Positions 12,400 through 16,161 of a stretch of DNA of 64,000 nt are shown here, piece after piece; position 1 is the stretch's first letter; every line of letters starts with the position of its first letter. Both the position numbers and the translations under genes were made by a program. A model generated the notes under the pieces. That model did no database searches, was not told where the DNA came from, and saw only the letters and a program-made list of their open reading frames with translations. Source of the stretch: Candidatus Freyarchaeum deiterrae (GTDB taxonomy: Archaea > Asgardarchaeota > Jordiarchaeia > Jordiarchaeales > Jordiarchaeaceae); assembly GCA_037305845.1 (NCBI GenBank), contig CP147778.1, positions 2,112,001-2,176,000 of the forward strand, written 5' to 3'.

Positions 12400-12864
12400 C
12401 TACTCTTCTGTGAAGGTGGCTATTGAACCCTCAGCCTCTTCCACTGAAACTTTAAATTTAAAGTCTTTGAGAGAGGATTGTTTTAACTGCTTGTAGATAT
12501 ACTCAGATATTTTCTCTACAGTTGTAGCTTCAATCGGCAACAGCAAAGCGTCGTCTTTTGGGAAAACGTATCTCCTTTTGTTTGCTACTACTTCCATTTC
12601 CTTTCCCATTTCTTTTATTTCAATATCCTTCGCCTTAGTTGGGATGAGTATGTGGTGATCCATTTTCTGACAAATCTCCCTCGCTATATTTCTTATATCC
12701 ATAAAGTCAACTATCATCTGCTGACCGTTCAACTCATTTGCCTCAATCTCAATAGTTACCCTATAGTTGTGTCCGTGTAGGCGTTCACACTTTGGGTGAC
12801 GCATTAAAAAGTGCGCTGCAGAAAAATTTAGATCCGCTCTGGTCACGACAAGTTTATACGGCAT
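12400..12864 (-). CDS. queD: 6-carboxytetrahydropterin synthase QueD
   Basis: FSAAH, KCERLHGHNY, DF, DH, TTVE; adjacent to queE. Confidence 0.92.
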   Translation of the reverse strand: MPYKLVVTRADLNFSAAHFLMRHPKCERLHGHNYRVTIEIEANELNGQQMIVDFMDIRNIAREICQKMDHHILIPTKAKDIEIKEMGKEMEVVANKRRYVFPKDDALLLPIEATTVEKISEYIYKQLKQSSLKDFKFKVSVEEAEGSIATFTEE

Positions 12865-13085
12865 CTTTTCAAACTTCCCTAAAATGTTCTTGTTTTAGTT
12901 ACTTTACGCTCTTACAAAAATTTCATCCCTGTATTTCCTTGCAATCATCTCAATAAATACTTTTAACTCTTACTAAACAATTTTGCTTCACGAAAAAATA
13001 TTCTTGTTACCTAGGTTATTAATAAATCTTCATCCAATATTCCGTGAAATTAACTTGAAATGCAAACGAAATTCTCTTTAGTACT

Positions 13086-13970
13086 TTAAAGAATCCCTAT
13101 AACCTTGTGAGCTTGAATCGAGAGCGAAATATCTTTTTTATCAAGATACTTTGACGCAGTCTCCGTGAACTGGAATAATTGTTTTATCGTGGGTTTCTCT
13201 TTTACTTCCCCGAATGGTGTCACAATCTGTATGCATAATGGGCATCCAATCTTGGCTAGTTCCAATGCGTACCATTCAATATTCTCTGATTTCGTCTCAG
13301 AAGTGACTACAACCTTGGCGAATGTCTTCTTTTTCGCATCCATAAAAATTTTCATAGTTTGGAATTCTCTCTCCACAAGAGCGCTCCAGTCGGAGGCAGC
13401 TCCCGCTGTTTCGTCTTTGATATCACAACAGCAATACTCAAAAAGATCAACAATTTTCAATGCGCAATTGGGCAAAGACCCGTTAGTCTCAAGAAAAAGA
13501 TTGTACCCGCCCGATACAAGTAACTCCGAAACTTCCTTTAGGAAATCTGTTTGATGCAAAGGCTCTCCACCAGTAAATGAAATTGAATGAAGATCCGGAG
13601 TTTCAATCCTTTTCAAATATTCGTACAACCTATCTGAGTCTATAGGGTTTGAAAATAGCGTGAACTCTCCGGTGCCTGGGTTTTCTTCCATTCTGAATTG
13701 CTGCATTTCCGGATTTTGAGCTCCAGGCGAGTGGCGTCTTTAGAGCGTACTCCACAAGATGTCGCACCACCTGCAGCCCTCGGTTCCGAATTCTCCTAAG
13801 GCTAGGTTGCAGCCCGCTAATCGAGCGATTCGACGAAAGGATAAAACTCATCCTTCCTATATCTGACGCTTCCCATAACACGAGCCGCTGACATTGCCTC
13901 CTTCCCCTTTACCTCCCTCTTAAGGGATCTGGTAGGAGGAGAACATCTCAGCGACCCATCCCTTAACCAA
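13086..13970 (-). CDS. queE: 7-carboxy-7-deazaguanine synthase QueE (radical SAM), four exons: 13970-13929, 13907-13859, 13828-13761, 13730-13086; 267 aa after predicted splicing
   Basis: Joined exons read MVKGWVAEMFSSYQGEGGNVSGSCYGKRQIFARLAGCNLALGEFGTEGCRWCDSPGAQ...FTGGEPL...LETNG...DIK...QAHK; GAGGTGA RBS before TTG 13970; exons total 804 nt. Confidence 0.92.
13731..13760 (-). other. Predicted BHB-like mRNA intron 3 of queE (30 nt)
   Basis: UGCG-AC^A-UCUU g UGGAG(UACG)CUCUA AAGA-CGCC-AC^U: 9-bp stem, 3 of 4 central pairs; in-frame TAA; removal gives W-C-D-S. Confidence 0.85.
13829..13858 (-). other. Predicted BHB-like mRNA intron 2 of queE (30 nt)
   Basis: AGAU-AU^A-GGAAGGAUGA(GUU)UUAUCCUUUC-GUCG-AA^U: 10-bp intron stem, 3 of 4 central pairs; unspliced frame has TAG and TGA; removal gives Q-I-F-A-R-L-A-G-C. 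Confidence 0.85.
13908..13928 (-). other. Predicted BHB mRNA intron 1 of queE (21 nt)
   Basis: UACC-AG^A-UCCCU(UAAG)AGGGA-GGUA-AA^G: strict 4-bp helix with two 3-nt bulges; contains an in-frame TAA; removal gives Y-Q-G-E-G. Confidence 0.9.
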
Positions 13971-14144
13971 TAACATCACCTCGAAATAGATACAAGCATA
14001 AGGTTTTCTAATTAACTCAGTTTCTGAGTCAAGAAGTCTTTTTTACTTTAAATTTGTTTGGCAGTTGATATAAACTTTTATTCGATAAAGCTTATGTATC
14101 TGTTTCTGCTTTATTGATGTGGATTCTCCCTGAGGCTGATCTTT

Positions 14145-14567
14145 ATGTCTTTAGTAGGACTTTTGATGGGTAAAATGGAGCTTCGGTTGTGCAATGCGAG
14201 GTCTCTTGAGCAAAACAAAATGATGGTTGAAAAACCAGGCTCAAAAAGCTATGTTGAATCAACAGCGGTTGTGCTACTAGGCAAAGATGATATGGGCCAT
14301 TACGGTCTTAAAAACGGAGATACTGTTAAGGTAACAACAAAGTTTGGAACGGTGGTTGTTAAAGCCTACCAAACAGACGAAACAAAAAAGGGAATAGCGC
14401 TCATGCCTAACGGACCGTGGTTCAACTCGATAACCGACCCAGACATAGACGTAACTGGTTTTAACTCCTACTACGTGTTAAACGCCAGTATAGAAACCAC
14501 AAATGAAGAAGTTCTGGATACAGAAAAATTCTTTGAAAAGCTACTGAGAGAGGACGCTCATGAGTGA
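14145..14567 (+). CDS. fwdD: Formylmethanofuran dehydrogenase subunit D-like
   Basis: Molybdopterin dinucleotide-binding fold (GDTVKVTTKFGTVVVKA...MPNGPWFN); overlaps the fwdA start. Confidence 0.8.
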   Translation: MSLVGLLMGKMELRLCNARSLEQNKMMVEKPGSKSYVESTAVVLLGKDDMGHYGLKNGDTVKVTTKFGTVVVKAYQTDETKKGIALMPNGPWFNSITDPDIDVTGFNSYYVLNASIETTNEEVLDTEKFFEKLLREDAHE

Positions 14568-16161
14568 ATCACTTCTTTTAAAGAACGGCTTCGTGTTTGA
14601 CCCCAAAAATAATGTGAATGGGGAACGTATGGATATAGCCGTAAAAAACGGCGTGATAGTTGAATCGGTAAAGGAAAAGGGCAGCAAGGTCGTGGATGCC
14701 CAAGGAAAAATGGTTTTTCCCGGTGGGATAGATATCCACACCCATATTGCCTCTCAGCATGTTAATTTTGGACGAATGCTATACCCCTCAGTATCAGGTA
14801 AGATCCTTCCTACCTCCCCCGAAGTAGGGCTAATGTACGCAAAAATGGGCTACACATTCGCACTTGAAGCCGCAGTGTCACCAACAAAAGCTTTACACAC
14901 TCACCTGGAATTCTCAGATATACCCATATTAGACTACGCGTGTCTGCTAGTCTTAGATTCATACTGGTATCTATTACAAGACGTTAGAAAAAAGTCCGTA
15001 GAAGAAGCTGCCACAATTATATCATGGCTGCTGGAATCGACCAAGACCTATGGAGTCAAACTGGTTGATCCCTTATCAAGTGAAATGTGGAGTTTCAAAA
15101 AAGAAATAACAAGCTTAGAAGAACCCATAAAGCTCCTCGGAGTATCTCCCCTGGATGTCATTCAAACACTAGGAAGAGCAAACGAATACCTAGGACTACC
15201 TCATCCAGTTCACATACATCCCAACGAAGCCGGAAAACCCGGAAACTACGAAACAACCCTCAAAACACTGAAGGCAATGGAAGAAGTAAGCCCCAATAAA
15301 AAACAGAGATCGGTACATTTAGCACACGCTCAATTGCACAGCTACGGGGGAAGCGAAGCAATCGAATCCAAAGCAGACCAAATAGCAGAATACATAAACA
15401 CCCACCCAAACGTGGAAGCAGACATTGGACAGATGGTGCCCCACGAAACAATAAGCCTTTACGCAGACAACCCCTTCCTAACCAGAATCGCGAAAGGAAA
15501 AAACATATTTACCGACCAAGTAGAAATGGAAGCAAGTTTCGGGGCAGCACTAACGGAATACACAATGGACGCAACCGGCAGCGTAATGTGGGCAACTGGT
15601 CTAGAACTAGCACTTAGCATAAAAGACCCATGGCAGATTCAGTTATCCGTAGATCATCCAAACCTAGGAATAATCACAGACTACCCACAAATCATTGCAT
15701 GGCTCATAAGCAAAAAAACCCGGGACGAAGTAAAACTAGAAGTGGATACATCACTGCCCTCTATGGATAGGGAATACTCGCTGTACGAAATAGCAATAAT
15801 AACCCGTGCAAGTCCAGCTCAATCACTTAGCTTACCCAACAAAGGAAACCTCTCAACTGGGTCAGACGCAGATATCGCGGTATACGATTTCAACCCTGAA
15901 ACCCAAGACCCCACAAAGGAAACAGAAGCCCTGATAAAAGCCTTCACCCAAACTTCCTACACTATAAAAAGCGGAGTAATGGTCATGAAGGAAGGAGAAG
16001 TCCTCGTAAAACCAAGAGGAAAAACCTACTGGGCGCACAGAGACGGAATCAGTTTTCCAGAAAAAAGGATAACGGAAATGCAGCGCTACTACTCACTTGA
16101 CATCAACAGCCTAAAAATCCCAAGGGAACTACTCCACAGCTCCCAAGAAGTAACATACTGA
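14560..16161 (+). CDS. fwdA: Formylmethanofuran dehydrogenase subunit A
   Basis: KNGFVFDP, PGGIDIHTH, YAKMGYT, LGLPHPVHIH..GKPGNY, WATGLEL, DHPN, LYEIAIITR. Confidence 0.92.
   Translation: MSESLLLKNGFVFDPKNNVNGERMDIAVKNGVIVESVKEKGSKVVDAQGKMVFPGGIDIHTHIASQHVNFGRMLYPSVSGKILPTSPEVGLMYAKMGYTFALEAAVSPTKALHTHLEFSDIPILDYACLLVLDSYWYLLQDVRKKSVEEAATIISWLLESTKTYGVKLVDPLSSEMWSFKKEITSLEEPIKLLGVSPLDVIQTLGRANEYLGLPHPVHIHPNEAGKPGNYETTLKTLKAMEEVSPNKKQRSVHLAHAQLHSYGGSEAIESKADQIAEYINTHPNVEADIGQMVPHETISLYADNPFLTRIAKGKNIFTDQVEMEASFGAALTEYTMDATGSVMWATGLELALSIKDPWQIQLSVDHPNLGIITDYPQIIAWLISKKTRDEVKLEVDTSLPSMDREYSLYEIAIITRASPAQSLSLPNKGNLSTGSDADIAVYDFNPETQDPTKETEALIKAFTQTSYTIKSGVMVMKEGEVLVKPRGKTYWAHRDGISFPEKRITEMQRYYSLDINSLKIPRELLHSSQEVTY

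What the first reader, a model, noticed from the sequence alone, without database searches (positions are those of the whole stretch)
13086..13970. queE split by three micro-introns within its first 240 nt
Seen in sequence: introns at 13928-13908 (ATCCCTTAAGAGGGAGGTAAA), 13858-13829 (AGGAAGGATGAGTTTTATCCTTTCGTCGAA) and 13760-13731 (ATCTTGTGGAGTACGCTCTAAAGACGCCAC) leave exons of 42, 49, 68 and 645 nt. The ORF caller kept only a 206-aa fragment lacking the Fe-S cysteines. The joined 267-aa protein has QGEG, FxRLAGCNL and CxWCD, and sits next to intact queD. Inference: preQ0/archaeosine synthesis would depend on three splicing events, coupling a tRNA-modification pathway to tRNA-splicing capacity. 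cbf5 is likewise an RNA-modification gene.
Basis: partly seen in the sequence, partly recalled or inferred. Interest (0 to 1): 0.9.

Follow-up and report, generated by a model that had tools for sequence, protein, structure and literature searches.

The report
Three tRNA-type introns in Asgard queE
In a soil Asgard archaeon, the only gene for the tRNA-modifying enzyme QueE is cut into four pieces by three tiny tRNA-style introns, kept at the same codons across its whole class; this points to routine messenger-RNA splicing in close prokaryotic relatives of eukaryotes, though no RNA was examined here.

Summary
Confirmed base for base. queE (minus strand, 13970-13086) has inserts of 21, 30 and 30 nt, each carrying stop codons and each folding as a bulge-helix-bulge (BHB), the substrate of the archaeal tRNA-splicing endonuclease. 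Cutting by the BHB rule gives 267 aa that align without junction gaps to uninterrupted orthologues. All 11 sampled genomes of the class (Jordarchaeia/Freyarchaeia, two families) have the three introns at the same codons. Inner exons are fixed at 49 and 68 nt; introns range 15-30 nt, often frame-shifting. Orthologues in 34 other Asgard genomes are uninterrupted. This is the genome's only queE; the archaeosine pathway, a broad-specificity-type (alpha-beta)2 EndA and RtcB are present. A motif-free census found 16 more frame-breaking inserts among 725 orthologues, including rtcB itself, mostly in genes unrelated to RNA modification. So the 'coupling to tRNA modification' idea is not supported as special: queE is the extreme case of a genome-wide habit. 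Published archaeal cases I found are single introns (cbf5, HVO_1309). This scan noted the same triple intron earlier in a relative (e1-5396135).

The parts
13976..13982 (-). Shine-Dalgarno-like GAGGTGA, 5 nt before the TTG start (an in-frame ATG at 13976-13974 overlaps it)
   Evidence: sequence; the motif and TTG are kept in all six genomes of the family
13929..13970 (-). queE exon 1, codons 1-14, ends ...SSYQ
13908..13928 (-). intron 1, 21 nt, canonical BHB: central helix TACC (13934-13931) with GGTA (13913-13910), bulges AG|A and AA|G, 5-bp inner stem; splits the QGEG motif; contains TAA
   Evidence: 20-26 nt in relatives, 4/4 central pairs in all 11
13859..13907 (-). queE exon 2, 49 nt in all 11 genomes
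13829..13858 (-). intron 2, 30 nt, relaxed BHB: AGAT (13864-13861) with GTCG (13834-13831), outer pair mismatched in this family and paired in the sister family; bulges AT|A and AA|T; splits the Phe31 codon; contains TAG and TGA
   Evidence: 18-30 nt in relatives; retention stops translation after codon 30 in all 11 genomes
13761..13828 (-). queE exon 3, 68 nt in all 11 genomes; encodes all three Fe-S cysteines (C37-x11-C49-x2-C52)
13731..13760 (-). intron 3, 30 nt, relaxed BHB: TGCG (13766-13763) with CGCC (13736-13733), outer pair mismatched here but paired in 9 of 10 relatives; bulges AC|A and AC|T; follows the CxWCD motif; contains TAA
   Evidence: 15-29 nt in the ten relatives
13086..13730 (-). 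queE exon 4, 645 nt with stop; holds the 206-aa ORF that databases call as the whole gene
12916..12963 (-). probable remnant of the DUF366 gene that lies between queE and queD in several relatives
   Evidence: 16 aa at 69% identity; weak alone (E about 1) but in the syntenic place
12400..12864 (-). queD (6-carboxytetrahydropterin synthase), intact, downstream on the same strand
   Evidence: near queE in all 11 genomes of the class

Best explanation
queE is a functional four-exon gene. Its pre-mRNA folds into three bulge-helix-bulge motifs that use non-overlapping exon segments. The cell's (alpha-beta)2 tRNA-splicing endonuclease cuts after the second base of each 3-nt bulge, RtcB joins the exons, and the mature mRNA encodes a 267-aa Cx11Cx2C QueE, the genome's only route to CDG/preQ0 for archaeosine. 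Shown: the inserts, their geometry, their conservation, the restored protein, and the presence of the enzymes' genes. Inferred: transcription, cleavage, ligation and enzyme activity. The three introns were most simply gained on the stem of the class, in a lineage that accumulates BHB introns in tRNAs and in tens of mRNAs, and they persist because they are removable; no regulatory purpose is required.
For: Junctions align without gaps to intronless orthologues. 11/11 class genomes carry all three at the same codons, with inner exons invariant and introns 15-30 nt; 17 of 33 are not multiples of 3. 34/34 outgroup orthologues are uninterrupted. All 33 introns have A first in both bulges and at least the three inner central pairs. 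Inner stems differ in sequence yet stay paired; for intron 1 the shuffle P is 0.019 or less in all 11. Codons whose third base lies in a central helix or at the bulge A (Tyr13, Ile30, Cys52) are identical in all 11 genomes, against 2 of 91 invariant-residue codons elsewhere (kin are not independent). Exons 1-3 show pN/pS 0.13-0.29. The region folds at z = -3.2. No second queE. The EndA alpha subunit matches Aeropyrum EndA (E 1e-42) with the Y/H/K triad and an ungapped CSL loop with the Lys44 equivalent, which that paper ties to relaxed motifs; a second, His-lacking paralogue and RtcB are present. Genome-wide, 12 of 16 frame-breaking inserts have a perfect helix plus both A's (null 0.017 each), against 0 of 23 in-frame stop-free inserts.
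Against: No spliced-form protein of this class was among the 136 database proteins fetched; this carries little weight if the collection is mostly DNA-derived. Introns 2 and 3 are imperfect in this genome (3 of 4 central pairs), and predicted pairing of the central helices is low in several relatives. QueE activity is assigned by sequence, fold and neighbourhood; intronless orthologues score below every curated QueE cut-off.
Confidence: 0.92

Rival explanations
1. The introns are spliced and are also kept as a regulatory device: three serial cuts make QueE output, and so archaeosine, a sensitive read-out of splicing capacity.
For: All three are kept across two families, whereas the rtcB, tyrS and ahcY introns are patchy. 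Retention of intron 2 stops translation after codon 30 in all 11 genomes. queE is the only multi-intron gene seen among 725 orthologues. Yokobori 2009 proposed negative regulation for cbf5 (PMC2738675).
Against: The hypD and gatE introns are equally conserved in both families and most intron-bearing genes are metabolic. Precise intron loss is rare without any selection for the intron. Thirty-four outgroup genomes run the same gene without introns.
Confidence: 0.15
2. No splicing: the ribosome reads through, frameshifts or hops over the inserts (recoding).
For: In this genome all three inserts are multiples of 3 and contain hairpins.
Against: In relatives 17 of 33 inserts shift the frame, in both directions. 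The stops are TAA, TAG and TGA. Take-off and landing codons do not match at introns 1 and 3 in any of the 11 genomes. Read-through would place 7-10 extra residues inside ungapped motifs. Recoding does not explain the exact BHB geometry.
Confidence: 0.02
3. queE is a pseudogene, or only the 206-aa fragment is made and has another role.
For: Databases call only truncated or wrong-frame N-termini for this class.
Against: Purifying selection on exons 1-3; invariant exon lengths in two families; the fragment lacks all three Fe-S cysteines; the rest of the pathway is present and no substitute queE was found.
Confidence: 0.03
4. The inserts are excised at the DNA level, are mobile elements, or are assembly errors.
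For: Unchecked notes of this scan report homing-endonuclease genes beside similar mini-introns in DPANN genes.
Against: Identical sequence in three other assemblies. No intronless DNA copy in the genome. No LAGLIDADG_3 match in this genome or in 8 of 10 relatives (one family only). No Rfam family. The three inserts share only the BHB geometry.
Confidence: 0.02

Closest known systems
cbf5 pre-mRNA intron of Sulfolobales and Desulfurococcales (Watanabe 2002; Yoshinari 2006; Yokobori 2009, PMC2738675)
   Same: Short (16-44 nt) BHB-type intron inside a conserved motif of a coding sequence, cut by an (alpha-beta)2 EndA, missed by annotation. This genome and five relatives also have a cbf5 intron at the catalytic Asp codon.
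   Different: cbf5 has one intron and was the only confirmed coding-sequence case in the papers read. queE has three within 240 nt, with 49- and 68-nt inner exons, in an Asgard class, in a genome with at least 19 further such genes. cbf5 splicing is shown experimentally; this is not.
HVO_1309 intron of Haloferax volcanii (Schwarz 2020, PMC7714728; reviewed in PMC10485636)
   Same: mRNA BHB intron processed by the tRNA-splicing endonuclease.
   Different: Single, in the 5' UTR, cut by an alpha2 enzyme; does not interrupt codons.
Multi-intron tRNA genes of Freyarchaeia/Jordarchaeia and Atabeyarchaeia (PMC11291895; bioRxiv 10.64898/2026.10.13.758758)
   Same: Same lineage, same motif, several introns per transcript, same presumed enzymes.
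   Different: Those papers treat tRNA genes; my term searches of both found no mention of introns in protein genes.
QueE, 7-carboxy-7-deazaguanine synthase (B. multivorans 4NJG, Cx14Cx2C; E. coli 6NHL; B. subtilis 5TGS)
   Same: The only PDB sequence hits of an intronless orthologue are 4NJG and 6NHL; top fold hits of its model (pLDDT 91) are B. subtilis QueE; queD adjacent.
   Different: Cx11Cx2C spacing; below all curated QueE model cut-offs; PFL-activating enzyme scores almost as well by fold; activity untested.

Membership tests
Archaeal BHB (EndA-spliced) introns | 4-bp central helix flanked by two 3-nt bulges, cut after the second bulge base | tested here: met
   intron 1 is 4/4 in all 11 genomes; intron 2 is 4/4 in five and 3/4 in six; intron 3 is 4/4 in nine and 3/4 in two (including this genome). 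The cuts restore the frame and the invariant residues.
Archaeal BHB (EndA-spliced) introns | Adenine at the first bulge position (held by the enzyme's cation-pi sandwich, PMC3241643) | tested here: met
   66 of 66 bulges
Archaeal BHB (EndA-spliced) introns | Flanking intron stem and exon stem | tested here: inconclusive
   Intron stems of 4-10 bp here and significant against shuffles for introns 1 and 2; only 1-2 bp for the 15-17 nt intron 3 of the sister family. Exon stems of introns 2 and 3 are offset by 1-2 nt (bulge-helix-loop type).
Archaeal BHB (EndA-spliced) introns | Removal restores an uninterrupted product colinear with intronless homologues | tested here: met
Archaeal BHB (EndA-spliced) introns | Host encodes EndA able to cut relaxed motifs, and a ligase | tested here: met
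   Two EndA paralogues, alpha with triad and CSL Lys; RtcB. By sequence only.
Archaeal BHB (EndA-spliced) introns | Spliced RNA or excised circular intron observed | not testable with these tools
QueE (radical SAM CDG synthase) | N-terminal QGEG and FxRxxGC motifs, three Fe-S cysteines, TGGEP, ETNG | tested here: met
QueE (radical SAM CDG synthase) | Curated family model cut-off | tested here: not met
   An intronless orthologue scores 52 bits against a cut-off of 240 (TIGR04508), and similarly for other QueE models; a divergent archaeal subfamily
QueE (radical SAM CDG synthase) | QueE fold, and clustering with queD/queC | tested here: met
   Stand-in orthologue model's top hits are QueE structures; queD in all 11 class loci, queC beside some outgroup copies
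QueE (radical SAM CDG synthase) | Converts CPH4 to CDG | not testable with these tools
   needs an enzyme assay
Homing-endonuclease-linked or self-splicing (group I/II) introns | Ribozyme core, or endonuclease ORF in or beside the intron | tested here: not met
   15-31 nt is too short for a ribozyme (established knowledge); no Rfam hit; no LAGLIDADG_3 match in this genome (other endonuclease families not searched)

The most novel reading that the evidence does not exclude
Jordarchaeia/Freyarchaeia routinely splice messenger RNA with the tRNA endonuclease and RtcB: tens of protein genes (about 2% of conserved genes in this genome) are interrupted, queE is a true four-exon gene ancestral to the class, and in this family the ligase gene rtcB itself needs splicing. 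Other Asgard lineages do this at a lower rate (a 1.42-Mb genome has such an insert in its actin gene). This would be a spliceosome-free, multi-exon gene architecture in the prokaryotes closest to eukaryotes.
Probability: 0.75. Interest if true: 0.9.

Novelty: new variant of a known kind. Interest (0 to 1): 0.82.

Why it matters
The reviews read here list two archaeal mRNAs with an intron, each single (cbf5; the HVO_1309 leader). A protein gene with three, fixed across an Asgard class, would show that archaea can keep multi-exon genes with 49-68 nt inner exons, spliced while coupled translation presumably competes for the transcript. It makes testable the questions of splicing order, of ribosome-versus-endonuclease competition, and of whether endonuclease-type mRNA introns were common near the origin of eukaryotes. 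In practice, every database entry seen for this gene in the class is truncated or has a wrong N-terminus, and the census shows the same for rtcB, gatE, tyrS and others, so metabolic reconstructions of these archaea are affected. Metatranscriptomes from the probable source soil exist (PMC11291895), so the key test is a read-mapping job.

Tried and rejected
A search of the protein collection for an already spliced product found none; the 262-264 aa entries (P0006 and others) are wrong-frame N-termini, not spliced or intronless copies. A fourth, in-frame intron inside the cysteine motif (removing 24 nt would give Cx3Cx2C): rejected, because intronless orthologues have the same 11-residue spacer. 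A first genome-wide BHB scan with loose rules showed no excess over frame-shifted controls, since gene junctions dominate; a stricter one gave 11 against about 3; I relied on the motif-free census. The reference genome G011 was meant as an intron-free control but has 5 BHB-type inserts of its own among 664 pairs. The bacterial promoter/terminator scan gave chance levels. Rfam: nothing relevant. The spliced protein could not be submitted for folding, so an intronless orthologue stood in. ARAGORN found no tRNA in the window. A pair count on the alignment failed on an input slip and was not repeated. Nine literature searches found no paper on Asgard mRNA introns; the library lacks most subscription journals.

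Full report
Source. The window is positions 2,112,001-2,176,000 of a single 3,576,204-bp contig. Its closest relatives are labelled Jordarchaeum, Jordarchaeia and Freyarchaeota. The size matches the complete 3.58-Mbp genome of Freyarchaeum deiterrae, in which 92-95% of tRNA genes carry introns (PMC11291895); that identification is my inference.

Observation. The ORF list shows only the 206-aa tail. Each insert is a multiple of 3 here but contains stop codons. Three assemblies of other sequencing runs are identical across the region. An aligner that allows 13-60 nt gaps in DNA and has no notion of RNA structure, given an uninterrupted outgroup protein, returned the same three inserts.

Anatomy. 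Each insert has BHB geometry: exon 4-mer, 3-nt bulge cut after base 2, inner hairpin, complementary 4-mer, second bulge cut after base 2. Intron 1 is canonical (TACC/GGTA). Introns 2 (AGAT/GTCG) and 3 (TGCG/CGCC) lack the outer central pair in this genome, and their exon stems are offset by 1-2 nt, which is the relaxed bulge-helix-loop form. The 291-nt region folds better than shuffles (z = -3.2), and its minimum-energy structure contains the three inner hairpins with three central pairs each. The introns fall in the conserved N-terminal motifs: inside QGEG, inside the Phe31 codon, and right after CxWCD. Exon 3 carries all three Fe-S cysteines as Cx11Cx2C, a spacing shared with intronless homologues.

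Comparative evidence. All 11 genomes held for the class have one copy of the gene, and all have the three introns at the same codons. Inner exons are always 49 and 68 nt; introns are 20-26, 18-30 and 15-30 nt, and 17 of 33 are not multiples of 3. Two further assemblies agree (L208, L209). In 201 Asgard genomes searched, the 34 orthologues outside the class are full length without stops, and spliced products align to six of them with no gap at any junction. All 66 bulges begin with A. Inner stems differ in sequence between families yet pair. The three codons whose wobble base lies in a central helix or at the bulge A are identical in all 11 genomes, against 2 of 91 comparable codons elsewhere in the gene (related genomes are not independent). 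Exons 1-3 have pN/pS 0.13-0.29. The simplest history is three gains on the stem of the class; I did not build a rooted tree to test it.

The protein and pathway. An intronless orthologue hits only QueE entries in the PDB by sequence (4NJG, 6NHL), and its model (pLDDT 91) ranks B. subtilis QueE first by fold. It stays below curated QueE cut-offs, so the name rests on motifs, fold and the queD/queC/DUF366 neighbourhood. A profile search of the genome's six frames found the four exons and no second queE; a DNA search found no intronless copy. A FolE2-type cyclohydrolase, QueD, two QueC, TgtA and an ArcS-like gene are present. So the cell has an archaeosine pathway whose only QueE is unreadable unless the inserts are removed.

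Machinery. There are two EndA paralogues. One has the Tyr/His/Lys triad and aligns without gaps through the Crenarchaea-specific loop of Aeropyrum EndA, including the Lys44 equivalent; that loop confers activity on relaxed motifs (PMC3241643). The other lacks the catalytic His, as a structural subunit would. RtcB is single.

Context. Notes by other first readers pointed to more such inserts in this genome, so I ran my own census. I aligned 725 proteins from 1.2 Mb of another Asgard genome to this one. Sixteen frame-breaking inserts of 20-33 nt had well-aligned flanks; 12 have a perfect 4-bp helix with A in both bulges (chance 0.017 each) and the other 4 are near-BHB, whereas none of 23 in-frame stop-free inserts has the motif. 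They lie in gatE, nadE, a YchF-like GTPase and a TIGR00375 gene (named), rtcB, and, named from motifs I recognise, cbf5, ahcY, leuC, porA, hypD, pcm, rps26e, a ppsA-like and a PflX-like gene, plus two unnamed genes. tyrS, alba and fadH came from other scans. Each has one intron; queE alone has three. The cbf5, gatE and hypD introns are shared by both families; rtcB and tyrS are confined to this family; ahcY is patchy. About 2% of conserved genes are affected, which suggests tens in the genome (inference).

Mechanism. Most likely the pre-mRNA forms three motifs, EndA cuts six phosphodiester bonds and RtcB makes three joints. Retaining any one intron in this genome ends translation by residue 59, and retaining intron 2 ends it at residue 30 in all 11 genomes. 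The DNA-level facts are shown; transcription, cutting, ligation and QueE activity are inferred from the cbf5 precedent and from established EndA/RtcB chemistry. Recoding is disfavoured by frame-shifting lengths and unmatched take-off/landing codons, and a pseudogene by selection. Regulation by splicing load is possible (about 0.15) but not needed: equally old introns sit in hypD and gatE.

Comparison with what is known. It works like the cbf5 intron and meets every sequence-level criterion of the BHB class, partly in relaxed form; the RNA-level criterion could not be tested. A 2023 review counts two archaeal spliced mRNAs (PMC10485636); Yokobori 2009 says others had been predicted but not confirmed. 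The 2026 preprint on Asgard introns covers tRNA genes and notes that none of its newly identified inserts has been shown spliced in an Asgard cell. My searches found no paper on multi-intron archaeal protein genes or on Asgard mRNA introns; the library is incomplete. This scan recorded the same triple intron in a related genome (e1-5396135; seen after my own comparison was done) and single or double mini-introns in DPANN genes; those notes are not independent support.

Verdict. Real, and very probably spliced (0.92). A new variant of a known kind: known motif and enzyme, new multiplicity, lineage and scale.

Noticed in passing
G000:C1:1452824-1452796 (minus; locus L034): The genome's only rtcB (RNA ligase) gene has a 29-nt BHB-type insert in its LPD^AHQGYGFP motif. 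It is present at the same codon in all 6 genomes of the family and absent from 4 sister-family genomes and from the 14 other Asgard genomes whose alignment covers the site. The ligase would be needed to make its own mRNA.
   Followed up: partly
L211:1835-1868 (G011:C1:535634-535667, plus): The actin gene of a 1,418,269-bp Asgard genome of another family has a 34-nt BHB-type insert in PPERMYS^VWIGGS (GTAC/GTAC helix; first bulge starts with T, not A). Two relatives lack it, so it looks like a recent gain.
   Followed up: partly
G011:C1 827298-827326 (+), 738042-738071 (+), 852814-852786 (-), 630086-630116 (+): Four more BHB-type inserts in that genome (glycine-cleavage-like, gatA-like, PflX-like and phosphoribosyltransferase-like genes, named from motifs): mRNA introns are not confined to Jordarchaeia. 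The PflX-like gene has an insert in both genomes, at different nearby codons.
   Followed up: partly
G000:C1:1483446-1483415 (minus; locus L149): cbf5 intron at the catalytic Asp codon, the position described for Sulfolobales and Desulfurococcales; present in all five relatives checked. Shared ancestry, transfer or repeated gain is unresolved.
   Followed up: partly
G000:C1 1472189-1472160, 1873166-1873137, 1876927-1876899, 2636190-2636158, 1589381-1589354, 2434719-2434689, 1500558-1500539, 1661667-1661638, 2191720-2191690 (minus); 2580004-2580031, 2244134-2244165, 1619887-1619919, 2285374-2285405, 1863944-1863974, 2278919-2278949, 1125569-1125598, 2494680-2494713 (plus): Further single BHB-type inserts, in this order: gatE, tyrS, ahcY, leuC, porA, two unnamed genes, ppsA-like, YchF-like; hypD, pcm, nadE, TIGR00375, PflX-like, rps26e, alba, fadH. 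gatE, tyrS, ahcY and hypD were checked in five relatives.
   Followed up: partly
window 12916-12963 (minus): Probable remnant of DUF366 between queE and queD; the whole gene sits there in the sister family and in two genomes of this family, and was not found intact elsewhere in this genome.
   Followed up: partly
window 14145-16161 (plus): fwdD-like and fwdA-like formylmethanofuran dehydrogenase genes start 175 nt upstream of queE, transcribed divergently; the arrangement recurs in close relatives.
   Followed up: no
P0006 (GCA_041862095.1, locus L208): A record labelled Lokiarchaeia has 79% identity, the same gene order and the same three introns, so it is probably a member of this class; its 264-aa annotated protein has a wrong-frame N-terminus.
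   Followed up: partly
G000:C1 296901-297587, 2600062-2600670, 2602613-2603002: Two full-length queC genes; one lies about 2 kb from a third, weak TGT-domain gene, which may belong to another deazaguanine modification system.
   Followed up: no
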